A DNA stretch of 22,955 nt from a virus (Duplodnaviria; Heunggongvirae; Uroviricota; Caudoviricetes), in the IMG/VR virus record IMGVR_UViG_2541047790_000011. One strand, 5' to 3'. A model generated the notes under the pieces. That model did not search any database. It had not been told where the DNA came from and saw nothing but the letters and a program-made list of their open reading frames with translations. Numbering within the stretch: position 1 is the first letter of the stretch; each line of letters starts with the position of its first letter. Both the position numbers and the translations under genes were made by a program. Shown in pieces: positions 8,950 to 22,955 of the stretch.

Positions 8950-8950
8950 T

Positions 8951-10460: not shown

Positions 10461-10900
10461 TGCCGTGGCAACCATTAAGGCGATGCACTGAGCCTGGCTG
10501 TAATAAGCGCGTGAAGTCCGGCAAGTGTGAAGAGCACAGGCGGGCTGCATGGCGTGCAGAGGATGCCAGACGGGGACACCGCCGCGCGCGCGGGTATTCC
10601 CGACAGTGGGACAAATACCGCGCCCTGTACCTGAGCAAAAACCCGTTATGCGTGAGTTGTCTGGCTAAGGGGATTTATACGCCAGCTCTTGTGGTGGATC
10701 ACATCATTCCCATCAATGGCGGCGGTGATGTTCTCTTCTGGCCTGAGTGGAACCACCAGGCATTGTGCCAGACGTGCCACAACCGTAAGACGACACGGGA
10801 AGATCCCGCCACGAAAGCGAACCGTAAGGCGGGCATGTATCGCGATCAGGAAGAACGGGCGGCACACCGTAACGACTGGATGTATGGCGATGATGACTGA
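10460..10900 (+). CDS. HNH endonuclease (terminase-associated)
   Basis: 146-aa product with cysteine clusters and the HNH core (VVDHIIPINGGG ... NHQALCQTCHNRKT). Lies immediately upstream of terS/terL, as in cos-packaging HK97-like phages. Confidence 0.85.
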   Translation: MPWQPLRRCTEPGCNKRVKSGKCEEHRRAAWRAEDARRGHRRARGYSRQWDKYRALYLSKNPLCVSCLAKGIYTPALVVDHIIPINGGGDVLFWPEWNHQALCQTCHNRKTTREDPATKANRKAGMYRDQEERAAHRNDWMYGDDD

Positions 10901-11188
10901 ACAGGAGCAAAACAGGCTGATACGTGGGTTGATAAGGCAGCGTGACACATGGAAGACACAGGAGACAGGGCACAAAGCCAACAGGACAGGGCGCACAAAA
11001 CGCACCACAGCGAAGCGATTAACCGACCGTGACCGCGAGGTCATGGAATGTTTTCGCAATCGCTGGTGAGGCCGTCAGAGGGGGTGGGGGTGGTTTTCAG
11101 GACGAAACCGTCCCTGCCGGACACCGACCGCCTCCCCAAATTTTTATGCACGGGAATTTTTTGAAAAATAATCTGACGAAAAATAAGC

Positions 11189-11545
11189 ATGGCAAGACCA
11201 CCGAAAGCCCCCGCCTACCTGGATGATATCGCCGTGAAGCAGTGGCGGGAAAAATCGCGGCAGCTTGCGGAACGGGGAGACCTGACCCCCGCCGACTGGA
11301 GCAATCTGGAACTGTATTGCGTCAACTACTCCATTTACCGGAAAGCCGTTGCAGACCTTGCGGCGCGCGGGTTCAGCATTGTTAACAGTCAGGGCGGCGA
11401 GAGCAGAAACCCCGCATTAAGCGCAAAATCCGACGCTGAAAGAGTGATGATAAAAATGGCCTCCTTGCTCGGTTTTGACCCGATAAGCCGCCGTAAAAAT
11501 CCACCGGAAACAGAAGAAGAGGACGAGCTTGACCGCCTGGAATAA
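11189..11545 (+). CDS. Terminase small subunit (P27-like)
   Basis: 118-aa product whose pattern (W---L-ERGDLTPAD---LELYCV-YS-YRKA ... acidic C-terminus) resembles P27-family small terminases; immediately precedes the large terminase. Confidence 0.75.
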   Translation: MARPPKAPAYLDDIAVKQWREKSRQLAERGDLTPADWSNLELYCVNYSIYRKAVADLAARGFSIVNSQGGESRNPALSAKSDAERVMIKMASLLGFDPISRRKNPPETEEEDELDRLE

Positions 11546-13190
11546 GTACGCAGAAGACGTAAAAACGGGCAAAATTCCGGCCTGTAAACGGCTGAAACAG
11601 GCCGTTAAACGGTACTTTTCGGACCTTGAAAGCCCCCTTTACACGTTCGATCGTGAGGTTGTGGAGCGGTTTATTGCCTTTTCCAGGGTGTGCGCGCACG
11701 TAAAAGGGCCGATGCGTGGCAGACCCATTGAGCTGGAGCCGTGGCAGCAGTTCGCCTTTGCGTGCATCCTCGGCTTTAAGGTTAAGGCCACCGGACGGCG
11801 CAAATACACGAGCGCCTTTATCGAAGTGCCGCGCAAAAATGCGAAATCCACGACCGCCGCGATTCTGGCTAACTGGTTTCTGATTATGGAGAACGGTCAG
11901 CAGGATATCTACACCGCAGCGGTGAGCCGTGACCAGGCGCGGATCGTCTTTGATGATGCGCGTCAGATGTGCCTTTTATCCCGACCGTTACGCAGGCGGG
12001 TGAATATTCAGGCGCATAAGGTGATACACCCGAAAACCAACAGCCTGTTAAAGCCACTGGCAGCAAAAGCGGCAACCATTGAGGGGACAAACCCGAGTCT
12101 TGCCATTGTGGATGAATATCACCTGCACCCAGACAACGGGGTTTATTCCGCACTTGATATGGGGATGGGCGCACGTCCCGAAGGGCTGTTATTTGCCATT
12201 ACCACATCGGGCAGTAACGTCGTTTCAGCCTGTAAGCAGCACTATGATTATTGCTGCCAGATCCTGGACGGCGAAGAGGTCAACGATTCAATTTTTGTAC
12301 TGATTTACGAACTGGACGACGAAAACGAGGTTGATGATCCGGCGATGTGGATAAAGGCTAACCCTAACATCGATGTTTCCGTCGATCGTGAAAAACTGGC
12401 CTCAACCATCCAGAAAGCGCGGGGTATTCCGTCGCAATGGGTGGAAATGCTCACCAAGCGATTCAATATCTGGTGTCAGGGGGCTACGCCGTGGATGGGT
12501 AACGGTGCATGGGCGGAGTGTGCCGGAACGTTCGCGGAGGCGGATTTATACGGGCAGGAGTGCTACGCGGGGCTGGACTTATCATCAACCAGCGATATTT
12601 CCAGCGTGTGCTATGCCTTCCCGGTCGGTAAAAAGATTATGCTGGTTTCCCGTCACTATCTGCCGGAATTTCAGCTACAGAATCCCGCCAATAAAAACCG
12701 CGCCATCTATCGCCAGTGGGTAAAGGCGGGCTGGATACGCACAACACCGGGTGACTGCATTGATTATGACCGTATCCGTGATGACATCATGGCGGATGCA
12801 GAGAATTTCAATATCAGGCTGGTGGGCTTCGATACATGGAACGCCACGCACCTGAGGACGCAGTTACAGGGCGCAGGATTTGAGGTGGAGCCGTTCCCGC
12901 AAACCTACCTCAGATTCAGTCCGGCGGCGAAATCGTTCGAAGTTTTTGTTAACCGGAAGGTGATTGTGCATCGTGGTGATCCGGTGCTGGCCTGGTCAAT
13001 GAGTAATGTTGTGATGCAGAGTGACGCGAACGCCAATATCAAGCCGAACAAGAAAAAATCATCCAACAAGATAGACCCGAGCGTTGCGGCGCTGATGGCG
13101 TTTGGCACATTCCAGGCAGAGCACGAGGACTTTGCATTCGATATGAGCGACAGCCACAAAGAGCGGCTTGCGGCGTTTGATGGGGTATGA
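11529..13190 (+). CDS. Terminase large subunit
   Basis: 553-aa product with an N-terminus typical of Terminase_1-family large subunits (TAWNKYAEDVKTGKIPACK), an ATPase region and a C-terminal nuclease region. The only in-frame start near the N-terminus is TTG at 11529, overlapping terS; the start codon is uncertain. Confidence 0.85.
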   Translation: MTAWNKYAEDVKTGKIPACKRLKQAVKRYFSDLESPLYTFDREVVERFIAFSRVCAHVKGPMRGRPIELEPWQQFAFACILGFKVKATGRRKYTSAFIEVPRKNAKSTTAAILANWFLIMENGQQDIYTAAVSRDQARIVFDDARQMCLLSRPLRRRVNIQAHKVIHPKTNSLLKPLAAKAATIEGTNPSLAIVDEYHLHPDNGVYSALDMGMGARPEGLLFAITTSGSNVVSACKQHYDYCCQILDGEEVNDSIFVLIYELDDENEVDDPAMWIKANPNIDVSVDREKLASTIQKARGIPSQWVEMLTKRFNIWCQGATPWMGNGAWAECAGTFAEADLYGQECYAGLDLSSTSDISSVCYAFPVGKKIMLVSRHYLPEFQLQNPANKNRAIYRQWVKAGWIRTTPGDCIDYDRIRDDIMADAENFNIRLVGFDTWNATHLRTQLQGAGFEVEPFPQTYLRFSPAAKSFEVFVNRKVIVHRGDPVLAWSMSNVVMQSDANANIKPNKKKSSNKIDPSVAALMAFGTFQAEHEDFAFDMSDSHKERLAAFDGV

Positions 13191-13480
13191 CGAGAATGAG
13201 CGAAACCGAACTACTAAAAATAATCCGCCGTGTTACCGGAGCCAGCCAGACAGCAGACAAACAGGAGGCCACGCAGCCGGACAGCGTGATAGCCGAAAAT
13301 TACGCGCGTGTGGTGGCTGAGGTGATGCGCCGTGACGGTATTGAGCTTAACGGCGTGGATATGCGCAACATACGAACCAGAGTCCTTGAGTTGCTGGCAT
13401 ACCGTCGCCGTTCTCAACAACGGAGGGAGAGCGCGAAAAATACTTATCAGTGGAAGAAGCCGGAACGGTTGCGGCGGTAA
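13187..13480 (+). CDS. Hypothetical protein
   Basis: 97-aa ORF whose start overlaps the terL stop (ATGA); last gene before the island boundary region. Confidence 0.45.
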   Translation: MTRMSETELLKIIRRVTGASQTADKQEATQPDSVIAENYARVVAEVMRRDGIELNGVDMRNIRTRVLELLAYRRRSQQRRESAKNTYQWKKPERLRR

Positions 13481-13593
13481 CTTGCAGATATTCCCGATAA
13501 CGTAAAATTGCGTTGGCTGGCAGAGTGCAAATTTGCACGATGGCCTAACCCATTGATTGTTTCGGAAACCTCAATTTGAGGAGGCCGGACAGC

Positions 13594-13628
13594 GTGACGG
13601 AGGGTGACAACCAGTGACACGCCGTGAC
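13594..13628 (+). repeat. Four GTGAC direct repeats at exact 10-bp spacing (candidate integrase arm-type or packaging-protein sites)
   Basis: GTGAC at 13594, 13604, 13614 and 13624, phased by one helical turn, in the non-coding stretch between the last satellite gene and clpS. Confidence 0.4.
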
Positions 13629-14406
13629 AAAAAGACGGTTTAACCATCCATTAAAAATCGACGTGATTTTGTGCTTTCCGTATGAGGTGGCCAGCGTCAT
13701 TTTTTAGTGAGAAATTCTGGTCAGGGGCGTTGGCTGAATGGTTATTTTATCGTGCCCATGCACAGGGAGGGGGCGGGTAAAATCTCTGGAGGTGATGCCT
13801 GTCAGGACCGCCGCCTGACCCTTCCTCACATCGCCGCAGGTTCGAAAACTTTTTTTGTGTCAGGTGCGCACGGAATTGATAGATAAAACCTATATTAAAA
13901 AATCACGGAAGCCGTGCCATTGCTGGAGCAGTCAAAAATTCCACATCTCACGGCAGGCAAAAAAAGCGAATTTTGGGCCAGTTGAGGATAAAAAAGGGCT
14001 CACTAGTTTTGCACATCCTGGTATCGGGGTCGTCAGCCTCCCGCCAGTAACTAGGTAACTAATCACGCTGGTGGGCATGATGCCGATGCCGGGATCTCGG
14101 TATCGGTTTATCTGTGATCATCCACCAGCTTGATGACAGATAACAGGGAGTCATAACGGTTAAAGCGTGTTGATCTTTGTTCGTGGTTGTTCGATATTGT
14201 TCGTAAAGCGGTGTAGTTAATGGTGTAGTTAATTTCGCTGTTTTTGACGAGCTTATCATTTGCAACGCAATGAAAAACAAAGACTAATTAACAAAATGCT
14301 ATAAATGATAGTTATCTATCATGTGGAGTAGATTGGTCAGGCAAATAAGCTCTTGTCAGCGGCAGGGCGTTCTGCCGATAACCGTAACCGAAGATGATAA
14401 CTGACA

Positions 14407-14727
14407 ATGGGTAAAACGAACGACTGGCTGGACTTTGATCAACTGGCGGAAGAAAAAGTTCGCGACGCGCTAAAACCGCCATCTATGTATAAAGTGATAT
14501 TAGTCAATGATGATTATACTCCGATGGAGTTTGTTATTGACGTGTTACAAAAATTCTTTTCTTATGATGTAGAACGTGCAACGCAATTGATGCTCGCTGT
14601 TCACTACCAGGGGAAGGCCATTTGCGGAGTCTTTACCGCTGAGGTTGCAGAAACCAAAGTGGCGATGGTGAACAAGTACGCGAGGGAGAATGAGCATCCA
14701 TTGCTGTGTACGCTAGAAAAAGCCTGA
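14407..14727 (+). CDS. clpS: ATP-dependent Clp protease adaptor ClpS
   Basis: 106-aa product [43 protein letters not shown] matches E. coli ClpS as recalled; immediately upstream of clpA. Confidence 0.95.
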
Positions 14728-14757
14728 ATGCAGGCATAAAAATTGGGGGAGGTGCCT

Positions 14758-17034
14758 ATGCTCAATCAAGAACTGGAACTCAGTTTAAATATGGCTTTCG
14801 CCAGAGCGCGCGAGCACCGTCATGAGTTTATGACCGTCGAGCACTTGTTACTGGCGCTGCTCAGTAACCCATCTGCCCGGGAGGCGCTGGAAGCGTGTTC
14901 TGTAGATTTGGTTGCGCTCCGTCAGGAACTGGAAGCCTTTATTGAACAAACCACACCCGTTCTGCCTGCCAGTGAAGAGGAGCGCGACACACAGCCGACG
15001 TTGAGTTTTCAGCGTGTACTGCAACGTGCGGTCTTCCATGTCCAGTCCTCCGGTCGCAATGAGGTTACCGGTGCAAACGTTCTGGTCGCTATCTTTAGCG
15101 AACAGGAGTCGCAGGCGGCATATCTGTTGCGCAAACATGAAGTCAGCCGTCTCGATGTGGTGAACTTTATCTCTCATGGCACGCGTAAAGACGAGCCGAC
15201 ACAGTCTTCTGATCCTGGCAGCCAGCCAAACAGCGAAGAACAAGCTGGTGGGGAGGAACGTATGGAGAATTTCACGACGAACCTGAATCAGCTTGCGCGA
15301 GTGGGCGGAATCGACCCACTAATTGGTCGTGAGAAGGAGCTGGAGCGTGCTATTCAGGTTCTCTGCCGTCGCCGTAAAAACAACCCGCTGCTGGTGGGGG
15401 AGTCTGGTGTCGGTAAAACCGCGATTGCGGAGGGGCTTGCATGGCGAATTGTTCAGGGCGATGTGCCGGAAGTGATGGCTGACTGTACGATTTACTCTCT
15501 CGATATCGGTTCCCTGTTAGCGGGCACAAAATATCGCGGCGACTTTGAAAAACGTTTTAAAGCGTTGCTCAAGCAGCTGGAGCAGGACACTAACAGCATC
15601 CTGTTTATTGATGAGATCCACACCATTATCGGTGCGGGTGCAGCGTCTGGTGGCCAGGTCGATGCGGCTAACCTGATTAAACCGTTGCTCTCCAGCGGTA
15701 AAATCCGCGTAATTGGTTCGACAACCTATCAGGAGTTCAGCAACATTTTCGAGAAAGACCGTGCTCTGGCGCGTCGCTTCCAGAAAATTGATATTACTGA
15801 ACCGTCAATCGAAGAAACTGTTCAAATCATCAATGGCCTGAAACCGAAGTATGAAGCGCACCACGACGTGCGTTATACCGCAAAAGCGGTGCGTGCGGCG
15901 GTAGAGCTGGCGGTGAAATACATTAACGATCGTCATCTGCCGGATAAAGCGATTGATGTTATCGACGAAGCGGGCGCTCGCGCACGTCTGATGCCGGTAA
16001 GCAAACGCAAGAAAACCGTTAATGTGGCGGATATTGAATCCGTGGTGGCCCGTATTGCACGCATTCCAGAGAAGAGTGTTTCTCAGAGTGACCGCGATAC
16101 CCTGAAAAACCTCGGCGATCGCCTGAAAATGCTGGTCTTCGGTCAGGATAAAGCCATTGAGGCGCTGACTGAAGCCATTAAGATGGCGCGTGCAGGTTTA
16201 GGTCACGAACATAAACCGGTCGGTTCGTTCCTGTTTGCCGGCCCTACTGGGGTCGGGAAAACAGAGGTGACGGTACAGCTTTCGAAAGCGTTGGGCATTG
16301 AGCTTCTGCGCTTTGATATGTCCGAGTATATGGAACGCCATACCGTCAGCCGTCTGATTGGTGCGCCTCCGGGATACGTTGGTTTTGATCAGGGCGGTTT
16401 GCTGACTGATGCGGTCATCAAGCATCCACATGCGGTGCTGCTGCTGGACGAAATCGAGAAAGCGCACCCGGACGTGTTCAATATTCTGTTGCAGGTGATG
16501 GATAACGGTACGCTGACCGATAACAACGGACGCAAAGCGGACTTCCGTAACGTGGTGCTGGTGATGACCACTAATGCCGGGGTACGGGAAACTGAGCGCA
16601 AATCCATTGGTCTTATCCACCAGGATAACAGCACCGATGCGATGGAAGAGATCAAGAAGATCTTTACACCGGAATTCCGTAACCGTCTCGACAACATTAT
16701 CTGGTTCGATCATCTGTCAACCGACGTGATCCATCAGGTGGTGGATAAATTCATCGTCGAGTTGCAGGTTCAGTTGGATCAGAAAGGTGTTTCTCTGGAA
16801 GTGAGCCAGGAAGCGCGTAACTGGCTGGCCGAGAAAGGTTACGACCGGGCAATGGGCGCACGTCCGATGGCGCGTGTCATCCAGGACAACCTGAAAAAAC
16901 CGCTCGCCAACGAACTGCTGTTTGGTTCGCTGGTGGACGGCGGTCAGGTCACCGTCGCGCTGGATAAAGAGAAAAATGAGCTGACTTACGGATTCCAGAG
17001 TGCACAAAAGCACAAGGCGGAAGCAGCGCATTAA
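14758..17034 (+). CDS. clpA: ATP-dependent Clp protease ATP-binding subunit ClpA
   Basis: 758 aa from [24 protein letters not shown], with two AAA+ modules (Walker A GESGVGKT and GPTGVGKT). GGGGGAGG precedes the ATG at 14758; the ORF track start at 14743 is 5 codons upstream. Confidence 0.95.
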
Positions 17035-17057
17035 TCTGATTGTCTGGTAGGTTGGTG

Positions 17058-17096
17058 AAGTCCGTAATCTCGTCAGGGGTTACGGACTTTTTATTT
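17058..17096 (+). terminator. Rho-independent terminator of clpA
   Basis: Stem aagtccgtaa (17059-17068) / ttacggactt (17080-17089), followed by a T-run. Confidence 0.6.
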
Positions 17097-17246
17097 ATGG
17101 GGGGAGGAGGTTCAGACCCTTTTTTTGATGATGATGGTAAGTTATTGATAATTAGTGCTGCGGGTAGGTAAGGATAAAAAAGGGTGGCAGCAGGAGATTG
17201 AGATGGTTTTGCTTTATTAACAACGGGCTAAACGTGTAGTATTTGA

Positions 17247-17334
17247 GTTCACTGCCGTACAGGCAGCTTAGAAATTGCCGCGGATCCTGTCTGCCAATAA
17301 TGACAAGTTCACTGCCGTACAGGCAGATAAAATG
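17247..17334 (+). CRISPR. Orphan type I-F CRISPR remnant (two repeats, one spacer)
   Basis: 28-nt repeat GTTCACTGCCGTACAGGCAGCTTAGAAA at 17247-17274, 32-nt spacer ttgccgcggatcctgtctgccaataatgacaa at 17275-17306, and a second repeat at 17307-17334 identical over the first 20 nt but degenerate in the last 8 (ATAAAATG). Repeat matches the type I-F consensus from memory. No cas genes in the window. Confidence 0.7.
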
Positions 17335-17336
17335 CG

Positions 17337-17364
17337 AAAAAAAAGCCCGTACTTTCGTACGAGC
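17337..17364 (-). terminator. Rho-independent terminator of serW
   Basis: On the minus strand: GCUCGUAC-GAAA-GUACGGGC hairpin followed by eight U, directly 3' of the tRNA. Confidence 0.55.
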
Positions 17365-17377
17365 TCTTCTTTAAATA

Positions 17378-17465
17378 TGGCGGTGAGGGGGGGATTCGAA
17401 CCCCCGATACGTTGCCGTATACACACTTTCCAGGCGTGCTCCTTCAGCCACTCGGACACCTCACC
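17378..17465 (-). tRNA. serW: tRNA-Ser (anticodon GGA)
   Basis: Reverse complement reads GGTGAGGTGTCCGAGTGGCTGAAGGAGCACGCCTGGAAAGTGTGTATACGGCAACGTATCGGGGGTTCGAATCCCCCCCTCACCGCCA: 88 nt with long variable arm, GGTTCGAATCC T-loop, anticodon GGA and encoded CCA. Confidence 0.93.
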
Positions 17466-17830
17466 AAATTGTTTTTTTGCCTGACCTCATGGGGGGCAAC
17501 GGGGCGCTACTATAGGGAGTTGGAATAAAACGGTCAAGAAGAATTTTTATGATAATTATTGTTTGCTCATACTGTAAACAAGTTGTGCAGTATATCTACA
17601 TCTGATGCGCCGCGCGATAAATAAGCCGCAATCCGTGAGATAAATGGACACAGTGCGGCTTTTCAGATACGGAAAAGGAATTACAGATTATCAGTCGTAA
17701 GCAACCCACGCTTACTGGCAAGGATGGTTTACAATGCTGAAAGCGCCTCCCGGCAATACCGCCAATCATCACTCAAACAGAAAAAATTATTGCTCATGGT
17801 TCACTCCGGTAATGAATCGTTTTACAGGCG

Positions 17831-18424
17831 TCATTCGGTCATGGAAAGATTGCTGATTTCGGTAATCCCGGCAATTTCCTCGCTGACGGATTTCAGTTCG
17901 ATTTCCAGCTTGGTGCGTTCGTTGACCAGCGCAGCTACGGTCTTACGGCGGTCTGCCAGTGACGGAAGGTTGTCATTGCCCCACGCCACGCTTTTATCCT
18001 TTTTGAGCGCTTCGGTCAGGCGGGTGGCGACCACATCCGGGAAGAAAAAGCATAACTTACGCATAACCGTCATCCCGACATCAGCCAGGGGGACATTCCC
18101 GCTCAGTCCCACCAGACGGAACAGACCAGAAATATCACCATTCTCATTTTCCAGATTACCCCAGCGTTCGGCGTTCCCTTCACTGCCGGAACCGTTGCAA
18201 AGAGCAAGCTTGAATGACTGATATTCTTCCTGCCCGAATCGCTCAATATATTCAGGAATAAAGGAACAGTAATCATTAAGCGATAATGGCATATCCTGTA
18301 ATGTGGTTATTTCACTGTTAATCTCTCCAATTCGGCGGGAGAGCTTTTCTTTCTGCTCATTCAGGGAGGCAAGATTATTTTTAACGGCGTTCAGTGCTTC
18401 GATAAGGGAAATAACAGGTTTCAT
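17831..18424 (-). CDS. Hypothetical protein (third gene of Mor-headed operon)
   Basis: 197 aa from MKPVISLIEALNAVKNNL; the start lies 1 nt after the upstream gene's stop. Coiled-coil-like N- and C-terminal segments; no recognised family. Confidence 0.5.
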   Translation of the reverse strand: MKPVISLIEALNAVKNNLASLNEQKEKLSRRIGEINSEITTLQDMPLSLNDYCSFIPEYIERFGQEEYQSFKLALCNGSGSEGNAERWGNLENENGDISGLFRLVGLSGNVPLADVGMTVMRKLCFFFPDVVATRLTEALKKDKSVAWGNDNLPSLADRRKTVAALVNERTKLEIELKSVSEEIAGITEISNLSMTE

Positions 18425-18425
18425 T

Positions 18426-19040
18426 TTAATAACTCCAGATGAAAGGCGTGGTGAGGGCGAGCGCTTCAGAATAGGAGACATTGCAGGCTGCACTTACGTC
18501 CTTTATTAAAAGGTGCTGTGCTGCCCTCTGACTGTCTGCTATGCCGTCAAACTCTGAAAAATGAACGTGTGATTCATTGTGATAAAAGCAAACCGGGTAA
18601 CAGCTTTCCATAAATTCTACCTGCGCCAGTCCCTTTACTGCTGGAGGCTGTGAGCCGAGAAAACCGATATGCTGAAGATACCAGGCACCGATTCCTGCCG
18701 GGTTGTTCGCTTCGCCGGGTCTATAAAATGCCGCAGACACTTTCCTGTAACGCCCTGCGCGTACCAGTCCCAGCAGGGTTTCATCAGGCTTAACCAGCGC
18801 GAAAAGCCTGCCGTTTTTACTTATCAGCCCAGTTGTTTCACCATAAGATGGGCTGTTGCTGGCCGGATGTCCAATACACAGCGGCGCACCATAACCCGCA
18901 CGATGATAGCCGTTATAGGCTGCCGCCATGTTGTCGATATCCTCGTCGGAAAAGGCAATTTCCTGCCCAGCCATCGTGATATGCGTTCCCGCCCGGAATA
19001 TCTCGATAGTTTTCCAGTTGCCAATATCGATATCTTTCAT
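18426..19040 (-). CDS. Hypothetical protein (second gene of Mor-headed operon)
   Basis: 204-aa ORF tightly coupled to both neighbours. The N-terminus (W-TIEIFRAGTHI--AGQEI-FS-EDIDN-AAAYN ... PLCIGHP) loosely recalls Mu-like prophage protein I / DUF-type phage proteins; this is a weak, unverified impression. Confidence 0.5.
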   Translation of the reverse strand: MKDIDIGNWKTIEIFRAGTHITMAGQEIAFSDEDIDNMAAAYNGYHRAGYGAPLCIGHPASNSPSYGETTGLISKNGRLFALVKPDETLLGLVRAGRYRKVSAAFYRPGEANNPAGIGAWYLQHIGFLGSQPPAVKGLAQVEFMESCYPVCFYHNESHVHFSEFDGIADSQRAAQHLLIKDVSAACNVSYSEALALTTPFIWSY

Positions 19041-19041
19041 T

Positions 19042-19569
19042 TTAAATTACCCCATATTTCGCATCGCGCTGTATTTTATTTTTCTTGCGTTCGGCGGCTA
19101 TAATCTGATAAATACACTGAATGGAACGCTTGTATTTTTTTGATAGTTCAAAAATAGAGATACCCTGATAAAAATCAGCCAGTATTTTTGAGTTCCTGTC
19201 GAAAGTGTTTTTTGATGCGCCCATAGGGATATATATATTCCCCCTGAAAAATGTATTCCTGAGACATTCAGTGATGGCAGGAGAAAGTTTTTCGGCTTGC
19301 GAACAGAGGTAAGGTATGGTTCCTAATGTCTGCTCAATAGATTCAGTCAGCTCCTGTAGGAAGCGAACTGCCTTAGGTGCTCTTTCTCGGTGTTCAGCCA
19401 TATACCCCTGGCAGCCACCAAGGTTATCAGAGATACCCAACACAATATGATTAGCCGCACTGCAGGACTGTTGCCGTGAATACCCTTTGTTGATCAGAAA
19501 CACTTCTATAGCATCGCCCATTGCCCCCAAAGTATCGGATGAAGCATACAATCCTTCTCTTGTAATCAT
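19042..19569 (-). CDS. Mor-family transcriptional activator-like protein
   Basis: C-terminal region RGNIYIPMGASKNTFDRNSKILADFYQGISIFELSKKYKRSIQCIYQIIAAERKK parallels the Mu Mor/C activator HTH region (G-VYIP-G ... R---I---F-G-----L---Y------IY-I---RK). GAGGTG lies 5-6 nt upstream of the ATG at 19569; the ORF track GTG at 19575 is an alternative. Confidence 0.6.
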   Translation of the reverse strand: MITREGLYASSDTLGAMGDAIEVFLINKGYSRQQSCSAANHIVLGISDNLGGCQGYMAEHRERAPKAVRFLQELTESIEQTLGTIPYLCSQAEKLSPAITECLRNTFFRGNIYIPMGASKNTFDRNSKILADFYQGISIFELSKKYKRSIQCIYQIIAAERKKNKIQRDAKYGVI

Positions 19570-19809
19570 AATCACACCTCGTCAACGATAAATATGCGCA
19601 CATAAAGCCTTTATAAAGCTTTATGAGGTGCATTACTGGTGTCATTCCATGATGCACACCACCAACAACCAAAAACGCCTTACAGAGCATTTCAATGTGT
19701 GTTATTAATGTGGATTAAGAATATGGTTTTGGGGCGAGAATGTTTTTTAATGTACTTTAGATATGACGAAGCCCCTCAAAGGAGGGGCGAGGCGGAAAAC
19801 TATTTATAA

Positions 19810-20088
19810 CTATTCCTTACTCTCCTGATCAAGACGATTACCTATCAGGTTAATCATTGCCATTGCATCAGATAGCAGGATACTGTTAACAAGTGCTAAG
19901 GGCGTCTGTGTTGATTTATCATCAACGGCAACAGAAAGTTCATCATTCAGGCGACGAACGGCCTCAAGACGGCTAAAGGCGGCTTCCCATATTTCTGTAC
20001 TCGGGGCATCAGCATTAACAAACAAAACATCGTAAGACGTTCCCTGAGACTCATGAGGACAGGCTATGAAATTAGCAGTAGCTTTCAT
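19810..20088 (-). CDS. Hypothetical small acidic protein (second gene of 2-gene operon)
   Basis: 92-aa ORF; its start overlaps the upstream gene's stop (ATGA at 20085-20088). No recognised family. Confidence 0.5.
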   Translation of the reverse strand: MKATANFIACPHESQGTSYDVLFVNADAPSTEIWEAAFSRLEAVRRLNDELSVAVDDKSTQTPLALVNSILLSDAMAMINLIGNRLDQESKE

Positions 20089-20564
20089 TTTGCAGTCCTC
20101 CGGTTAATTATAAATTTATTATAAATTTCATAACTTGCGGCATTCAGTCCTGGACTGTATTTATCTGCCAGTGAACAGGCAATGAATTCTTCAATCGATT
20201 TAGTCAGTATATCAAGCTCAGTTGTTCCGGAATAACGCAAGGCCACTCGAAATAATTCTCGGCAGTATGTTTTTTTATGGTCAATATTTTGTAACTGCTG
20301 TTGCGGTATATCACGACGTTCAAATATATTAACAAATGCATTAAGCGGGAAGCTATGATTTGCCTGCGGATATTGCTCATAGGAAAACACCACAGTATTA
20401 CCGTTGCATTCTTTAACAATTGCATTCATACCGCTGTTAATTTCAATATACCACTCTCCTATACATGGAGGATTGATAGCTTCGCTCTGTGCCTTGATTA
20501 AAGGTAAGCGGATAGTATCCACTTGGTTTGTTGCAACTGAATCGTTAGACTTGTCGTTAGCCAT
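20085..20564 (-). CDS. Hypothetical protein (first gene of 2-gene operon)
   Basis: 159 aa from MANDKSNDSV with AGGA 8 nt upstream. AT-rich codon usage by eye. No recognised family. Confidence 0.55.
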   Translation of the reverse strand: MANDKSNDSVATNQVDTIRLPLIKAQSEAINPPCIGEWYIEINSGMNAIVKECNGNTVVFSYEQYPQANHSFPLNAFVNIFERRDIPQQQLQNIDHKKTYCRELFRVALRYSGTTELDILTKSIEEFIACSLADKYSPGLNAASYEIYNKFIINRRTAK

Positions 20565-20597
20565 GACTGTTATCCTACACATAACGGTTTTTGGTTA

Positions 20598-20701
20598 GGC
20601 CATAGCAAGTGCTCGCAACATTTGTTATGGCCGTTTCTTTGGCCCTTTCCCTGTGATAAGGTATAGACCTAACAAGTAAACACTAAGCCATAGGTCTATA
20701 C
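20598..20701. promoter_or_regulatory. Divergent promoter region with two inverted repeats (candidate operators)
   Basis: IR1: ggccatagcaa (20598-20608) / ttgttatggcc (20622-20632), one mismatch. IR2: gtatagacct (20661-20670) / aggtctatac (20692-20701), perfect, 21-bp spacer. Located between the minus-strand 2-gene operon and the plus-strand RHH gene. Confidence 0.35.
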
Positions 20702-20752
20702 ATGTCAACTATCTTGAGAGATAAAAGCCAAAAAGGGGCAGGGAAAGCCCCC

Positions 20753-20893
20753 ATGTTTAACGTTAGAATATCGCCAGATTTGAAAGAACAGTTTGAAATA
20801 CAAGCAAAAAAAGAAGGTGTTAGCTTGGGAAACTGGCTCAAGGAACTTGGCAGGGCGGAACTAAAACGTAAGGGGATCGAGCCGAAAGGGTGA
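20753..20893 (+). CDS. Ribbon-helix-helix (CopG/Arc/MetJ-like) DNA-binding protein
   Basis: 46 aa from MFNVRISPDLKEQFEIQAKKEGVSLGNWLKELGRAELKR: a beta-strand followed by two helices is the RHH signature. AGGGA lies about 9 nt upstream of this ATG. The ORF-track start at 20702 has no Shine-Dalgarno and abuts IR2. Confidence 0.55.
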   Translation: MFNVRISPDLKEQFEIQAKKEGVSLGNWLKELGRAELKRKGIEPKG

Positions 20894-20919
20894 TGTTTTA
20901 GTCTCCCTGTGTTTGATTA

Positions 20920-21753
20920 AAAGCGAAATCGCTTTCACATTTAAAGTTCAAGATAGCCAATGCCATCACCAAAGCGGACAGCGCTGTCCGCTTTTCATCA
21001 GTAAAAACCACATATTTACGCCAAAACGCTCAACGTTGAGCGCTACGTACCCCGGCAAAAGCGCAAGCGTCTGCGCTTTTGGTAACAAGCAATCAGCATT
21101 TAAATGCGGACAACGTTGACCGTTTTGAGGAATCAATGTCGGCTGAGCAAAAACGACAACGTTGTCGTTTTTAAAACGGCAAGCGCTTACCGTTTCAGAT
21201 TATCGAGGCGGTAAGAGTTTACCGTTTGGTGTCAATTATGTTCAATAAGCGAAAACGTTTTCGCATTTTCTCACCTAACGCGGCAAACCTTCTTTGTCCT
21301 AGATGGAAAAACGACAGCGCTGTCGTTTCTAATCCGGGGTTCCAAACCGCTCAGCGCTGAGCGGTTCTGTGGCTTTCTTACAATCCAAATCCGCCAACGT
21401 TGGCAGATTTGCAAATATCACATATGATTGATGGTCCCGAATCACAAATGTCCCAGCGCGGGGATATTTCAAGTAGTTCAATCATTTCATGCGCTGGCAG
21501 TCATCTCCAAAACTGCGAACGCCTGCCCTTTCAGTACAGTTTGGTAATATATATTGGTAAGCTTTACTTGTAGAAATATAAAACTCCAAAAGCGCCAGCG
21601 CTGGCGCTTTGTAAGGCCAGCAATATCATTCCCAGCGCTGGAATACTAAAAGGCGGATTCCTGCATCTTAATTTGAGATGGAATCTCATGGCAATCCAGT
21701 GTTAACGTAGGGTTTTAGCCAGTACTCACGACTTGAATATGCCAGCGCTGGCA
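20920..21753. repeat. Array of at least 15 sequence-diverse palindromes with shared architecture (A-run, CG-rich arms around a CAGCGCTG or CAACGTTG centre, T-run)
   Basis: Perfect palindromes read directly: 20971-20994 (24 nt), 21027-21042 (16), 21149-21172 (24), 21249-21264 (16), 21309-21328 (20), 21345-21366 (22), 21393-21404 (12), 21589-21610 (22), 21632-21641 (10), 21740-21753 (14). Near-perfect: 20920-20935, 21057-21080, 21107-21122, 21174-21195, 21209-21224. No convincing ORF covers the array. Confidence 0.6.
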
Positions 21754-21990
21754 CATTTGAAGTCTGGTAACATCAATAATCTAATGACACCTGATGTAAT
21801 TTTGAACCCTGAACTGGAATCAACCCCAAATTTAATGGCAACAGCTATCAGCCAGATTACTGATGAACGTGACCTGCTGAACCAATTACTTGACCAAGCA
21901 CAGATGGCCGATGCATTCGAGCAATTTTCCCGAACGGTTCGGACTTCTAAACTGGCTTTTGTGAAGGAAAACAAGGGCTTTGTTGAATAA
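21739..21990 (+). CDS. Hypothetical ORF whose 3' end runs into the IS903 terminal inverted repeat (possibly insertion-truncated)
   Basis: About 83 aa from ATG 21739 (MPALAHLKSG...); the last codons (GGC TTT GTT GAA TAA) are IS903 end sequence. The start codon sits inside the 14-bp palindrome 21740-21753. Coding status uncertain. Confidence 0.3.
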   Translation: MPALAHLKSGNINNLMTPDVILNPELESTPNLMATAISQITDERDLLNQLLDQAQMADAFEQFSRTVRTSKLAFVKENKGFVE

Positions 21991-22955
21991 ATCAGATTTC
22001 GGGTAAGTCTCCCCCGTAGCGGGTTGTGTTTTCAGGCAATACGCACGCTTTCAGGCATACCTGCTTTCGTCATTTTGTTCAGCGCTCGTACCAGGGCCAT
22101 AGCCTCTGCAACCTGACCATCGTAGTCACGCAGTGTCAGTGAACCTCCGAACAGCTGTTTTACCCGGTACATCGCCGTTTCCGCTATCGAGCGACGGTTA
22201 TAATCTGTTGTCCATTTCCACCGCGCATTACTCCCGGTCAGCCGCTGATTCGCAACAGCACGGTTACGGTCTGCATATTCACCGGGCCAGTAACCCGCGC
22301 CTTTTCGGGGCGGGATAAGCGCGCTGATTTTCTTACGCCGCAGTTCATCGTGACAGAGCCGGGTGTCGTAAGCGCCGTCTGCCGATGCTGCCCTGATTTT
22401 TCTGTGAGTCTGCCGGATAAGACCCGGGAAGGCTTCTGAGTCCGTCACATTGTTCAGCGACAGGTCTGCACAGATGATTTCATGTGTTTTGCTGTCAACT
22501 GCCAGATGCAACTTTCGCCATATACGACGGCGTTCTTTGCCGTGTTTTTTGACTTTCCATTCGCCTTCACCAAAGACCTTCAGCCCGGTGGAATCAATCA
22601 CCAGATGCGCGATTTCACCTCGGGTGAACGTTTTGAAACTGACATTAACCGACTTTGCGCGCTTGCTGACACTGGTGTAATCCGGGCAGCGCAACGGAAC
22701 ATTCATCAGTGTAAAAATGGAATCAATAAAACCCTGTGCAGCCCGCAGGGTCAACCTGAACACGCGTTTAATGACCAGAACGGTGGTGATGGCGAGATCA
22801 GAATAGCGCTGAGGTCTTCCCCGTGATGAAGGCGTTGCCGACTCATACCAGGCCTGAATAGCTTCATCATCCAGCCAGAAAGTTATGGAGCCACGGTTGA
22901 TGAGGGCTTTATTGTAGGTGGGCCAGTTGGTGATTTTGAACTTTTGCTTTGCCAC
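21976..22955 (-). mobile_element. IS903 (IS5 family), partial - runs off the right window edge
   Basis: Terminal inverted repeat GGCTTTGTTGAATAAATC begins at about 21976; the internal transposase is recognisable as IS903 from memory. The ~1.06-kb element would end beyond base 22955. Confidence 0.88.
22032..22955 (-). CDS. IS903 transposase
   Basis: 307-codon ORF starting MAKQKFKITNWPTYNKALINRGSITFWLDDEAIQAWYESATPSSRGRPQRYSDLAITTVLVIKRVFRLTLRAAQGF, near-identical to the IS903 transposase as recalled. Start codon (GTG in this frame) is at the very last bases of the window. Confidence 0.9.
   Translation of the reverse strand: MAKQKFKITNWPTYNKALINRGSITFWLDDEAIQAWYESATPSSRGRPQRYSDLAITTVLVIKRVFRLTLRAAQGFIDSIFTLMNVPLRCPDYTSVSKRAKSVNVSFKTFTRGEIAHLVIDSTGLKVFGEGEWKVKKHGKERRRIWRKLHLAVDSKTHEIICADLSLNNVTDSEAFPGLIRQTHRKIRAASADGAYDTRLCHDELRRKKISALIPPRKGAGYWPGEYADRNRAVANQRLTGSNARWKWTTDYNRRSIAETAMYRVKQLFGGSLTLRDYDGQVAEAMALVRALNKMTKAGMPESVRIA

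What the first reader, a model, noticed from the sequence alone, without database searches (positions are those of the whole stretch)
17466..21975. AT-rich accessory segment on the 5' side of serW, including a Mor-headed 3-gene operon
In E. coli K-12 as I recall the order is clpA, serW, infA. Here serW is followed by about 4.5 kb of AT-rich DNA with no infA in view. The 3-gene operon is headed by a Mor/C-family activator-like protein and followed by two tightly coupled unknown genes, the first with a faint resemblance to Mu-like phage protein I. No integrase is visible and the segment ends in an IS903, suggesting a decayed mobile element or defence island.
Basis: partly seen in the sequence, partly recalled or inferred. 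Interest (0 to 1): 0.5.

Follow-up and report, generated by a model that had tools for sequence, protein, structure and literature searches.

The report
Mini Mu-like satellite transposon beside serW
The odd DNA next to the serW tRNA gene is a small mobile element with no transposase of its own that carries the end sequences of a Mu-like (BcepMu-type) transposable phage and a conserved set of phage head-assembly and regulatory genes, so it most likely moves, and probably spreads, by exploiting that phage; I found no published description of this kind of phage hitch-hiker.

Summary
The segment is real and accessory: 23 of 5,426 complete E. coli genomes hold it. It is not a tRNA-integrated or decayed island. 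It is a discrete element starting at window 17603, 137 bp from the 5' end of serW, and ending about 1 kb beyond the window. It is 5,308 bp, or 6,374 bp with a secondary IS903. Its termini are 5'-TGA…TCA-3' with paired 12-bp subterminal repeats, and it is flanked by a 6-bp target duplication (TACATC, single copy in K-12). Identical copies sit at five different sites. Relatives of 4.4-9.6 kb occur in Salmonella, Yersinia, Erwinia and other genera. All 16 insertions examined have perfect 6-bp duplications. No transposase is encoded. The ends match those of a 37-kb BcepMu-like prophage that makes 6-bp duplications and is also present in all 23 carrier genomes. The "Mor operon" is the family's invariant core: a Mor activator, a prohead protease lacking its scaffold domain, and a novel helical protein, under purifying selection (dN/dS 0.1-0.26). 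Best reading: a non-autonomous satellite of transposable phages. Mobilisation in trans, packaging and capsid interference are inferred, not shown. A conserved array of at least 10 perfect palindromes is unexplained.

The parts
17597..17602 (.). Left copy of the 6-bp target-site duplication TACATC. The right copy lies outside the window, directly after the element's right end.
   Evidence: K-12 has a single TACATC at this point of the serW-infA spacer (L003 1604-1609). ZH063 has it on both sides of the element.
17603..17650 (+). Left terminus of the element. It starts 5'-TGA and carries two 12-bp subterminal repeats, CGCGCGATAAAT (17611-17622) and CGTGAGATAAAT (17634-17645), which are putative transposase-binding sites.
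   Evidence: The boundary is identical in five insertions of the same element. The first 20 nt are identical to the left end of the 37-kb BcepMu-like prophage of strain elppa5. The same repeats occur inverted at the right end with 22-bp spacing. The motif exceeds chance in the window.
17831..18424 (-). orf197: a novel all-helical protein and the last gene of the core operon. It sits where a scaffold would be expected; that role is inferred.
   Evidence: Length is fixed at 196-197 aa in nearly all homologues (229 aa in Yersinia) and the N-terminus is conserved. dN/dS is 0.15-0.26. The AF2 model is helical with pLDDT 72 and has no fold match in BFVD. There is no Pfam, PHROG or PADLOC family. HMM search finds 130 clusters at 50% identity in 1.84 billion proteins.
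18426..19040 (-). orf204: a Mu/BcepMu-type prohead maturation protease lacking the central scaffold domain. It is a protease domain joined by a linker to the C-terminal two-helix tail of full-length protease-scaffold proteins.
   Evidence: phrog_976 E=1.5e-42. 39-42% identity to residues ~10-165 of the helper's 371-aa protease. The invariant H58, S102 and H124 are retained, and the C-terminal ~30 aa align with the extreme C-terminus of full-length homologues. The AF2 model matches herpesvirus assemblins and T4 gp21. dN/dS is 0.10-0.14.
19042..19569 (-). Mor/C-family transcription activator (175 aa), the first gene of the core operon.
   Evidence: Pfam PF08765 E=3e-15. phrog_532 late transcriptional activator E=3.9e-17. 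Every family member has one, in three divergent allelic types.
19570..19809 (-). Conserved control region upstream of Mor: a terminator-like hairpin (GCCCCTCCTTTGAGGGGC) followed by a conserved A-rich/CCCC segment that may be an activator-dependent promoter.
   Evidence: The sequence is conserved between variants even where the Mor alleles differ. The promoter role is inferred. No matching motif was found in the helper.
19810..20088 (-). orf92: a small protein of unknown function and a universal family member (two allelic types).
   Evidence: Presence matrix. dN/dS is 0.15-0.21 within a type. No family hit.
20085..20564 (-). orf159: a shortened homologue of the family's 245-aa protein, itself about 30% identical to the helper's 303-aa DUF3102-like early protein encoded just upstream of the transposase gene.
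   Evidence: Weak hit to phrog_19015 in this copy; phrog_1748 for the 245-aa version.
20702..20893 (+). 63-aa ribbon-helix-helix protein (annotated 'HicB antitoxin'), transcribed divergently from the orf159 operon. Probably the element's repressor or regulator; no HicA partner is present.
   Evidence: Pfam HicB/RHH E=1.3e-6. phrog_228 Arc-like repressor E=4.2e-6. Two or more 'immunity' alleles exist, and dN/dS within a type is 0.03.
20910..21770 (.). Non-coding array of at least 10 perfect or near-perfect 20-26-bp palindromes of the form AAA-N5/6-A[A/G]CG[C/T]T-N5/6-TTT, with different arms that stay self-complementary. Function unexplained.
   Evidence: All 10 CG-centred 20-mers with >=9/10 pairs in the 22.9-kb window fall at 20973-21756; shuffles average 0.165. 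The array is about 80% conserved between variants, with symmetric centre changes AACGTT<->AGCGCT. The 37-kb helper has exactly one such site.
21739..21975 (+). 5' part of orf180 (phrog_4623 family), cut by the IS903.
   Evidence: Intact 180-aa gene in IS903-free copies (L002 19137-19679). 316-aa orthologues in the Salmonella and Yersinia elements.
21976..22955 (-). IS903 (IS5 family; 1,057 bp, continues 77 bp past the window end). It is a secondary insertion inside the element, with the 9-bp duplication GAAAACAAG at 21967-21975.
   Evidence: It is absent from otherwise identical copies in ETEC L3_E36 and SCU-387. 307-aa transposase. Terminal IR.

Best explanation
The segment is a non-autonomous transposable element of the Mu-like (BcepMu-type) transposable-phage lineage, in effect a natural 'mini-Mu' with a conserved cargo.

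Shown:
- It has the phage-type ends: 5'-TGA...TCA-3' with two 12-bp subterminal repeats per end.
- It makes 6-bp target duplications.
- It has no transposase.
- It occurs at many unrelated sites.
- It has moved very recently.

Inferred:
- It is cut and joined, probably copied by replicative transposition, in trans by the rve-type DDE transposase and the ExeA/MuB-like ATPase of a co-resident BcepMu-like prophage.
- It leaves the cell inside that phage's headful-packaged virions.
- Its conserved module is a helper-directed programme: an RHH regulator, a DUF3102-like early protein, orf92, and the operon of Mor activator, scaffold-less prohead protease and helical orf197. Most relatives add a shortened tape-measure protein and a small-terminase N-domain protein.
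- The protease keeps its catalytic Ser/His/His and its capsid-targeting tail but has lost the scaffold. It should therefore enter or compete for the helper's procapsids and, together with orf197, re-size or sabotage them, as Sid, CpmAB or TcaP do for other satellites.

The window's copy is a reduced version: it has lost the tape-measure and Gp27N genes, its orf180 is cut by IS903, and it contains an IS91 fragment. It is still mobile.
For: Boundaries and duplication:
- Comparison with K-12 and with an identical copy in a lambdoid prophage gives exact ends and a 6-bp duplication.

Mobility:
- All 16 independent insertions examined have perfect 6-bp duplications. They come from E. coli, Salmonella, Yersinia, Erwinia, Intestinirhabdus, Tenebrionibacter and one MAG, and range from 4.4 to 9.6 kb.
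- The 100%-identical element sits at serW-infA, brxC, eptA-adiC, nadC-ppdD and between lambdoid tail genes M and L.
- ST131 strain SK0832 has two copies, both carrying the IS903.

No transposase:
- No element protein hits any transposase or recombinase family.

Helper:
- A 37-kb BcepMu-like prophage (elppa5) has the same first 20 nt at the left end.
- Its right end is 91.5% identical over 189 bp.
- It has its own 6-bp duplication, TCCCGC, and it encodes an rve transposase and an AAA+ ExeA protein.
- An ST131 carrier genome has this prophage intact in ssuB.
- All 23 genomes with the identical element, plus AW1.7, contain the helper transposase gene, against 640/5,426 overall.

Not a recent deletion product:
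- Cargo proteins are only 24-42% identical to the helper's.
- Gene order cannot be derived from the helper by deletions.

Functional:
- dN/dS is 0.10-0.26, ORF lengths are fixed, and the core is invariant across genera.

Protease anatomy.

Activity in the wild:
- An IMG/VR metagenome contig of 7,799 bp starts and ends exactly at the element termini. This is what an assembler produces when flanks are heterogeneous.

Wider class:
- A ~12-kb metagenomic element has its own MuA/MuB plus Mor, short protease, tape measure and Gp27, but no capsid, portal or terminase.
- Other small elements pair Mor and a short protease with capsid or MuF genes.
Against: - No experiment or read-level data show trans-mobilisation, copy-number increase on helper induction, or packaging.
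- Co-occurrence with the helper is confounded by clonality: most carriers are one ST131 clade. Counted by insertion lineage it is 5 of 9. The 87%-identity variants in CX21, MS 115-1, KCJ3K291 and VREC0864 showed no helper transposase at megablast sensitivity.
- The capsid-remodelling role of orf204/orf197 rests on domain anatomy only, and orf197 has no detectable similarity to any scaffold.
- The window's copy lacks the tape-measure and Gp27N genes that most relatives have, so it may be a crippled derivative.
- The helper in one ST131 genome carries an IS66 in its tail-fibre region and may not make infectious particles.
- The elements are far smaller than a headful.
Confidence: 0.7

Rival explanations
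1. It is an inert remnant of a BcepMu-like prophage: internal deletions left the two ends and a few broken genes, and a resident phage transposase occasionally moves it by accident.
For: - All recognisable cargo is phage-derived (protease, Mor, tape measure, Gp27).
- The window's copy carries an IS903, an IS91 fragment and a truncated orf180.
- Defective Mu-like prophages are common (general knowledge).
Against: - Cargo proteins are only 24-42% identical to the helper's while the ends are 91-100% identical.
- Gene order is not collinear with the helper.
- dN/dS is 0.10-0.26 with strictly conserved ORF lengths.
- The same architecture is kept in at least six genera.
- The protease is cleanly re-engineered, not truncated: the scaffold is removed and the C-terminal tail is kept.
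Confidence: 0.1
2. It is primarily an anti-phage, host-protective cassette. On infection or induction of a Mu-like phage, its Mor switches on a scaffold-less protease, orf197 and (in relatives) an aberrant tape measure that poison virion assembly. The Mu-type ends only explain how the cassette spreads within genomes.
For: - Defence by blocking virion assembly is known, for example the prophage protein Tab (PMC10884400, found).
- The protease keeps its capsid-targeting tail but lacks the scaffold.
- The tape measure is shortened to 827 aa against 983 aa in the helper.
- All known satellites also interfere with their helpers, so this reading overlaps with the best explanation.
Against: - No protein matches any PADLOC model.
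- Copies disrupt a BREX gene and a lambdoid tail operon, which is parasitic rather than protective behaviour.
- Strict retention of both transposition ends across genera, together with the metagenome contig ending exactly at the termini, argues for selection on the element's own mobility.
Confidence: 0.15
3. It is a genomic island integrated at the serW tRNA gene by a site-specific integrase that has since been lost.
For: It lies next to serW. Serine tRNA genes are classical island integration sites (general knowledge).
Against: - It is on the 5' side of the tRNA, 137 bp away, and no tRNA-derived direct repeat is present.
- The duplication is 6 bp of spacer DNA.
- Identical copies lie at four non-tRNA sites.
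- In some ST131 genomes the clpA side of serW is separately interrupted (query coverage starts at serW in H17-H20). That is where a true tRNA island would sit; I did not follow this up.
Confidence: 0.01
4. It is a composite or one-ended transposon moved by the IS903 or by the IS91-family fragment it contains.
For: An IS903 and a 145-bp IS91 zinc-finger pseudogene lie in its right arm.
Against: - IS903-free copies have the same ends.
- Relatives lack both IS sequences.
- IS903 makes 9-bp duplications, as seen at its own insertion, not 6-bp ones.
- IS91 makes none (general knowledge).
- The element's termini match a phage, not an IS.
Confidence: 0.01

Closest known systems
BcepMu-like transposable myophages (BcepMu, phiE255, enterobacterial 'SalMu'-type prophages; E. 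coli prophage of strain elppa5 and ST131)
   Same: - Terminal sequences (TG...CA-type ends, here TGA...TCA), subterminal repeats and a 6-bp target duplication.
- Apparently random target choice.
- Homologous Mor, prohead protease, tape measure, Gp27 and DUF3102-like early protein.
- PMC2628397 states that BcepMu-type phages carry an rve-core, Tn552-related transposase and TG...CA termini.
   Different: - Size is 4.4-9.6 kb against about 37 kb.
- It has no transposase, ATPase, Gam, lysis, terminase large subunit, portal, capsid, sheath, tube or baseplate genes.
- Gene order is rearranged, with Mor directly upstream of the protease.
- The protease lacks the scaffold.
- It adds orf197, orf92, an RHH regulator and the palindrome array.
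Laboratory mini-Mu elements (Mu ends plus cargo, complemented by a helper Mu)
   Same: - Two phage ends, no transposase, transposition in trans.
- With helper Mu, packaging together with adjacent host DNA (established Mu genetics, general knowledge).
   Different: Those are engineered. This is a natural, diversified lineage with its own conserved regulatory and morphogenetic genes under purifying selection, and it belongs to the BcepMu (Tn552-like transposase) branch rather than the MuA branch.
Phage satellites P4, PICI/SaPI, cfPICI and PLE
   Same: - Small size and dependence on a helper phage.
- Genes aimed at helper late transcription: P4 delta, SaPI PtiA/M; here Mor.
- Genes aimed at capsid assembly: Sid, CpmAB, TcaP; here protease and orf197, by inference.
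- Genes aimed at packaging specificity: SaPI TerS; here Gp27N in relatives.
   Different: - It has no integrase, no AlpA, no primase or replicase, and no att site.
- Insertion, and presumably replication, are by transposition using helper-type ends.
- None of the marker genes of the four families is present.
MITEs and other non-autonomous transposons
   Same: They keep only the ends recognised by a transposase encoded elsewhere, and they generate that transposase's target duplication.
   Different: MITEs are about 300 nt and non-coding (PMC11389934). This element carries 7-10 selected genes of phage origin, and its presumed helper is a virus.

Membership tests
Transposable (Mu-like, BcepMu-type) phage-derived element | Termini 5'-TG...CA-3' with repeated subterminal transposase-binding sites in inverted orientation | tested here: met
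   TGATGCG...CCCTTCA, with two 12-bp (C)G(T/C)G(A)GATAAAT repeats per end about 22 bp apart. The ends are homologous to those of a full-length BcepMu-like prophage.
Transposable (Mu-like, BcepMu-type) phage-derived element | Short target-site duplication of fixed length at unrelated insertion sites | tested here: met
   16 of 16 insertions have a perfect 6-bp duplication with no consensus. The helper prophage also duplicates 6 bp.
Transposable (Mu-like, BcepMu-type) phage-derived element | Encodes its own DDE transposase and target-DNA ATPase (autonomy) | tested here: not met
   No rve, DDE or AAA protein is found in any of 12 family members. The element is therefore non-autonomous and not a transposable phage.
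Phage satellite (functional definition) | Lacks virion structural and packaging machinery but is mobilised by a specific helper phage | not testable with these tools
   The lack of machinery is shown. Helper dependence is supported only indirectly: matching ends, co-occurrence in 23 of 23 carrier genomes, and a metagenome contig ending at the termini.
Phage satellite (functional definition) | Conserved genes that redirect helper gene expression, capsid assembly or packaging | tested here: inconclusive
   Candidates are present and under selection: Mor, the scaffold-less protease, orf197, and in relatives a shortened tape measure and Gp27N. No functional test was possible.
P4-like / PICI / cfPICI / PLE satellites | Tyrosine or serine integrase, AlpA-type regulator, primase or replicase, family-specific markers (psu/delta/sid; terS; capsid set) | tested here: not met
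   None of these domains occurs in the element. The neighbouring element at window 1-14300 does have them.
Mor/C family transcription activator (Pfam PF08765) | Mor domain above the Pfam gathering score | tested here: met
   56.6 bits against a cut-off of 24.9, E=3e-15, residues 66-165.
Mu-type prohead maturation protease (assemblin fold, Ser/His/His) | Protease fold and conserved catalytic residues | tested here: met
   phrog_976 E=1.5e-42. The invariant H58, S102 and H124 are retained. Foldseek matches KSHV, EBV, HCMV and HSV proteases and T4 gp21. Catalysis itself was not tested.
Mu-type prohead maturation protease (assemblin fold, Ser/His/His) | C-terminal scaffold (coiled-coil) region fused to the protease, as in Mu gpI/gpZ and the helper's 371-aa protein | tested here: not met
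   The ~170-aa central region is absent. Only the last ~30 aa are kept.
Known anti-phage defence systems (PADLOC-DB v2) | At least one protein matching a defence-system model | tested here: not met
   No significant hit for 10 element proteins. The only match is a coiled-coil-type LmuB hit at E=0.002 with no matched stretch.
HicAB toxin-antitoxin (RefSeq annotation of the 63-aa gene) | HicB antitoxin paired with a HicA toxin | tested here: not met
   Only the RHH segment matches (residues 19-47). There is no HicA-like ORF nearby. PHROG places the protein with Arc-like repressors.

The most novel reading that the evidence does not exclude
This is the first recognised family of satellites of transposable phages. 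The elements have neither integrase nor replicon. They replicate and insert by capturing the helper's replicative-transposition machinery through mimicry of its ends, and they ride out in headful-packaged helper particles. They manipulate the helper with a Mor-driven module in which a scaffold-less, capsid-targeted protease and the orf197 protein re-size or abort helper capsids. The conserved array of perfect palindromes, of which the helper has one copy, may act as a sponge or enhancer for a helper DNA-binding protein such as transposase, terminase small subunit or an early regulator. Related forms with their own MuA/MuB (L017), or with capsid or MuF genes (the P0052 context, L030), would make this a broad and overlooked class.
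Probability: 0.4. Interest if true: 0.85.

Novelty: new variant of a known kind. Interest (0 to 1): 0.72.

Why it matters
- Phage satellites and other 'hitcher' elements are now thought to make up a large share of unexplained genomic islands. Every described bacterial satellite family integrates with its own recombinase and replicates from its own origin.
- A lineage that instead borrows a phage's transposase would add a new way of being a satellite. It would also explain a class of small 'hypothetical, Mor-containing' islands scattered at random sites in Enterobacterales.
- It would give a natural system for studying competition for a Mu-type transpososome and for procapsids.
- There are practical consequences. 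In the pandemic ST131 lineage the element is demonstrably active. One isolate has a copy that splits brxC of a BREX-1 defence system. In an ETEC strain a copy sits inside the tail operon of a lambdoid prophage. So it reshapes other mobile elements and defence loci.
- The scaffold-less protease and orf197 are candidate new capsid-assembly modulators.
- The palindrome array is an unexplained, strongly constrained DNA or RNA feature.

Tried and rejected
- **serW attachment site:** rejected by the K-12 comparison.
- **IS903 or IS91 composite transposon:** rejected by IS-free identical copies and by the duplication length.
- **Known defence system:** no PADLOC hit.
- **Structured RNA in the segment:** Rfam found only the tRNA and sub-threshold noise.
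- **orf197 as a recognisable scaffold:** the AF2 model is helical, but Foldseek against BFVD gave nothing below E=0.09, and BLAST/tblastn against the helper found nothing.
- **Shared activator-dependent promoter motif between the Mor-upstream region and the helper:** none found. The sigma-70 and terminator scans were not above background.
- **Palindrome array as ordinary repeats or terminators:** only one of the palindromes was called terminator-like. No explanation was reached.
- **Gene neighbourhoods of distant orf197 homologues:** the profile alignment was too diverse to search with. Single-protein scans of IMG/VR and JGI metagenomes found nothing.
- **Left end and duplication of the MuA-bearing relative L017:** not resolved.
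- **Short-protease homologues as markers:** not all mark satellites. P0059 is an isolated gene next to a CRISPR locus, and P0062 lies in an ordinary Mu-like phage.
- **Literature:** seven full-text searches and two targeted readings found no description of satellites or natural mini-elements of transposable phages. Subscription-only papers were not searchable.

Full report
**1. What is in the window**

- ARAGORN finds one tRNA, tRNA-Ser(GGA) = serW, at 17378-17465 on the minus strand, downstream of clpA at 14743-17034.
- To its right, GC falls from about 0.50 to 0.445.
- The ORFs there are:
  - three tightly coupled minus-strand genes: 19569-19042 (175 aa), 19040-18426 (204 aa) and 18424-17831 (197 aa);
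  - two more minus-strand genes: orf159 (20564-20085) and orf92 (20088-19810);
  - a divergent 63-aa plus-strand gene (20702-20893);
  - about 0.85 kb without convincing ORFs;
  - a short ORF cut by an IS903, which runs to the end of the window.
- Window 14301-22955 is 99.99% identical to E. coli ST131-type strain ZH063. I therefore used ZH063 (locus L001) to see the part of the element beyond the window.

**2. Boundaries**

- K-12 has serW followed directly by infA.
- BLAST of K-12 against ZH063 puts an insertion between K-12 positions that overlap by 6 bp.
- The junctions read ...TATATC TACATC|TGATGCGCC...CCCTTCA|TACATC GAGACA.
- The element therefore begins at window 17603. It ends at L001 26977, about 1 kb past the window and 122 bp before infA. 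It is flanked by a 6-bp duplication of spacer DNA.
- The IS903 is a later insertion inside the element. It is 1,057 bp, has its own 9-bp duplication GAAAACAAG, and is absent from otherwise identical copies. Without it the element is 5,308 bp.

**3. It is mobile, and recently so**

- Only 23 of 5,426 complete E. coli genomes hold >=80% of the segment.
- The 100%-identical element is found at five sites, each with a different perfect 6-bp duplication:
  - serW-infA, in an ST131 clade;
  - inside brxC of a BREX-1 system, as a second copy in ST131 strain SK0832 that already carries the IS903;
  - between eptA and adiC;
  - between nadC and ppdD;
  - between tail genes M and L of a lambdoid prophage in an ETEC strain.
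- Relatives at about 87% identity, 7.6-7.9 kb long, sit between dacD and sbmC, inside a glv PTS gene, and in ynbC.
- More distant relatives of 4.4-9.6 kb occur in Yersinia intermedia (two sites), Salmonella enterica (two sites), Intestinirhabdus, Tenebrionibacter, Erwinia tracheiphila (two copies) and a MAG. Those whose ends I delimited all had perfect 6-bp duplications.
- In total, all 16 insertions whose ends I delimited show a perfect 6-bp duplication.
- An IMG/VR contig of 7,799 bp from a metagenome begins and ends exactly at the element's termini. An assembler produces this when an element has many different flanks in the sample.

**4. Whose ends are they?**

- The termini are 5'-TGA...TCA-3'. 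Each end carries two 12-bp repeats, (C)G(T/C)G(A)GATAAAT, about 22 bp apart and in inverted orientation.
- Searching with the right end found a 37-kb prophage in strain elppa5, between yfcJ and fabB.
- That prophage encodes:
  - an rve-core DDE transposase (589 aa) and an AAA+ ExeA-family protein, analogous to MuB;
  - Gam, gp16, Mor and lysis genes;
  - a Mu-type small terminase (DUF3486), a portal (DUF935) and a 371-aa head protease;
  - a contractile tail and a Gin-like invertase.
- Its closest named relatives are BcepMu-type phages.
- Its left end starts with the same 20 nt as our element. Its right end is 91.5% identical over 189 bp. It is itself flanked by a 6-bp duplication, TCCCGC.
- PMC2628397 states that BcepMu-type phages have TG...CA termini and an rve-core transposase related to Tn552.
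- An ST131 genome that carries our element has this prophage, with intact transposase, inserted in ssuB and with the same right end.

**5. No transposase in the element; the helper is there**

- None of the element's proteins, nor those of its larger relatives, matches a transposase, integrase or replication family.
- The helper's transposase and ExeA genes are present in 640 of 5,426 genomes, or 11.8%.
- I searched with a chimeric query made of the element core plus 600 bp of the transposase gene. All 23 genomes with the identical element, and strain AW1.7, showed one more 'place' than with the element alone. That extra place is the helper gene.
- The 87% variants in CX21, MS 115-1, KCJ3K291 and VREC0864 showed no helper at megablast sensitivity.
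- Counted by independent insertion lineage, that is 5 of 9 against a 12% background. The enrichment is real but is neither absolute nor phylogenetically corrected.

**6. Not a deletion remnant**

- The ends are 91-100% identical to the helper's, but the cargo is not:
  - protease 39-42% amino-acid identity;
  - Mor 24-29%;
  - Gp27 N-domain 34-36%;
  - orf245 about 30%, to the helper's DUF3102-like early protein;
  - only the tape measure of the larger relatives is close: 70% over residues 1-699, and 827 aa against 983 aa.
- Gene order cannot be obtained from the helper by deletions. Mor lies directly upstream of the protease, and Gp27N is inverted at the far end.
- Between variants, orf197, orf204, the tape measure and Gp27N have dN/dS of 0.10-0.26 and identical lengths. 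Mor, orf92 and the RHH gene occur as swapped alleles, the mosaicism typical of phages and satellites.
- A presence matrix over 12 elements shows an invariant core of orf197, orf204, a Mor, orf92/96 and an RHH gene. The tape measure is present in 10 of 12. The right arm carries either Gp27N or an orf180/316-aa gene.
- The window's copy is a reduced member: it has no tape measure and no Gp27N.

**7. The core proteins**

- *Mor* is a bona fide Mor/C-family activator.
- *orf204* is a Mu-type prohead protease.
  - It hits phrog_976 at E=1.5e-42.
  - Its AF2 model (pLDDT 74.5) matches herpesvirus assemblins and T4 gp21.
  - It keeps the residues that are invariant across the family: GH58P, VS102AAF and LxH124.
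  - It lacks the ~170-residue central region that in full-length homologues, including the helper's, follows the protease domain.
  - It retains their last ~30 residues, a two-helix tail with an SYxEAL-type motif.
  - That the missing region is the scaffold and that the tail targets the capsid are inferences from Mu gpI/gpZ and HK97-like systems.
- *orf197* is all-helical with long N- and C-terminal helices. It has no detectable relative of known function. It belongs to a family of about 130 clusters at 50% identity, nearly all 175-240 aa.
- The *63-aa 'HicB'* is only a ribbon-helix-helix segment, Arc/CopG-like, with no HicA partner. It is placed divergently from the orf159 operon like a repressor.

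**8. A wider class**

Other small elements also pair Mor with a short protease:
- A ~12-kb metagenomic element has its own repressor, Ner, MuA, MuB and GemA, followed by Mor, a short protease (53% identical to orf204), a GpP-like protein, a tape measure and Gp27. It has no capsid, portal or terminase. Its right end carries MuA-type repeats and ends in TCA.
- A ~6-kb element next to sspB has Mor, a short protease, a decoration protein and a major capsid protein.
- An 8.3-kb IMG/VR contig has an orf245-like gene, Mor, a short protease, an orf197 homologue at 33% identity, a 452-aa and a 152-aa ORF that I judged MuF-like and gpG-like from position and sequence alone, with no family search.

Not every short protease marks such an element.

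**9. Most likely mechanism**

- *Shown:* phage-type ends, fixed 6-bp duplication, no transposase, many sites, recent duplication, a co-resident phage with matching ends, and selected cargo.
- *Inferred, step 1:* when the BcepMu-like prophage is derepressed, its transposase and ExeA ATPase assemble on the element's ends as on its own. They transpose the element, probably replicatively, because SK0832 keeps the serW copy.
- *Inferred, step 2:* the element's RHH-controlled early operon and its Mor then drive the protease, orf197 and, where present, tape-measure genes.
- *Inferred, step 3:* the scaffold-less but capsid-targeted protease, together with orf197, interferes with or re-sizes helper procapsids. 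The element is packaged by the helper's headful machinery with host flanks, as laboratory mini-Mu elements are.
- I put 0.7 on the core claim: a non-autonomous, trans-mobilised, functional transposable-phage parasite. I put about 0.4 on the full satellite scenario.

**10. Rivals**

- An inert prophage remnant is contradicted by section 6.
- A host-beneficial assembly-blocking defence cassette cannot be excluded and overlaps with satellite interference. Against it, there is no PADLOC hit and the insertions damage BREX and a prophage.
- A serW integrase island and an IS-driven composite are refuted by the boundaries and by the IS-free copies.

**11. Unexplained: the palindrome array**

- Window 20910-21770 holds at least 10 perfect or near-perfect 20-26-bp palindromes of the form AAA-N5/6-A[A/G]CG[C/T]T-N5/6-TTT. 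Their arms differ from copy to copy but remain self-complementary.
- All 10 CG-centred 20-mers with >=9/10 pairs in the 22.9-kb window fall in this 0.8 kb; shuffles average 0.165.
- The array is better conserved between element variants than several of the genes are.
- It shows symmetric centre changes (AACGTT <-> AGCGCT) with an asymmetric intermediate in one variant.
- The 37-kb helper has exactly one such site, inside the DUF3102-like early gene just upstream of the transposase gene.
- Possible roles are a binding array or sponge for a helper protein (transposase enhancer, small terminase or early regulator) or hairpins in RNA or single-stranded DNA. I could not discriminate between them.

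**12. Novelty**

- Seven full-text searches and a 2024 review of 'hitcher' elements, which lists satellites, mobilisable plasmids, MITEs and CALINs, contain no satellite or natural mini-element of transposable phages. Subscription-only literature could not be searched.
- The element fails the marker tests for P4-like, PICI, cfPICI and PLE families.
- I classify it as a new variant of a known kind (phage satellite / non-autonomous transposon). It would be a new way of being a satellite if the inferred steps hold.

Noticed in passing
window 1-14300: A second, unrelated satellite-type element lies immediately left of clpS and is absent from ZH063. It encodes a tyrosine integrase (1-1239), AlpA, a D5-type primase, SSB, an HK97-type capsid protein, an S78 protease, a portal, a head-tail connector, an HNH protein and small and large terminase subunits, but no tail genes. 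This is the gene set of a capsid-forming PICI (cfPICI). Homology to ZH063 resumes at 14301, at the yljB/clpS spacer.
   Followed up: partly
window 20910-21770 (also L004 17817-18396, L009 12435-13050; single site in helper L006 11944-11971): An array of at least 10 perfect palindromes with variable but self-complementary arms and a conserved A[A/G]CG[C/T]T centre. It is highly conserved between element variants, and the helper phage has only one copy. No explanation found.
   Followed up: partly
L010 7001-13374 (E. coli ST131 SK0832, NZ_AP046542.1): A second copy of the element, including its IS903, is inserted in brxC and splits the P-loop gene of a BREX-1 defence system (duplication CATACT). 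The element has probably inactivated an anti-phage system in this isolate.
   Followed up: partly
L002 15001-20308 (ETEC L3_E36, NZ_LR882997.1): The identical element sits between tail genes M and L of an otherwise complete-looking lambdoid prophage (duplication GTGAGG). One mobile element is parasitising another and may be polar on that prophage's tail operon.
   Followed up: no
hits H17-H20 (e.g. NZ_CP120633.1, NZ_OZ040539.1): In several ST131 genomes the match begins exactly at serW (query position 375), so clpA and serW are separated there. This is consistent with a separate insertion on the 3' side of serW, the classical tRNA attachment side.
   Followed up: no
L018 36828-39443 (NZ_OZ040274.1): The BcepMu-like helper prophage of this ST131 genome is inserted in ssuB and carries an IS66-family ISCro1 in its tail-fibre region. 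It may be able to transpose but not to make infectious particles.
   Followed up: no
L017 3600-16180 (JGI metagenome 3300056625): A ~12-kb element has its own MuA/MuB/GemA plus Mor, a short protease, a GpP-like protein, a tape measure and Gp27, but no capsid, portal or large terminase. It could be a satellite that transposes autonomously. Its left terminus and target duplication were not resolved.
   Followed up: partly
alignment A2, proteins P0054 and P0064: Two Mu-type proteases carry several N-terminal tandem copies of the same (S/D)YxEAL-type motif that forms the C-terminal tail of the family. This suggests the motif is a modular capsid-binding peptide.
   Followed up: no
window 17307-17334: A sub-threshold Rfam match to a CRISPR direct repeat (CRISPR-DR4, 29.7 bits against a 35-bit threshold) lies in the clpA-serW spacer. 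It is most likely a REP-like palindrome and a chance hit.
   Followed up: no
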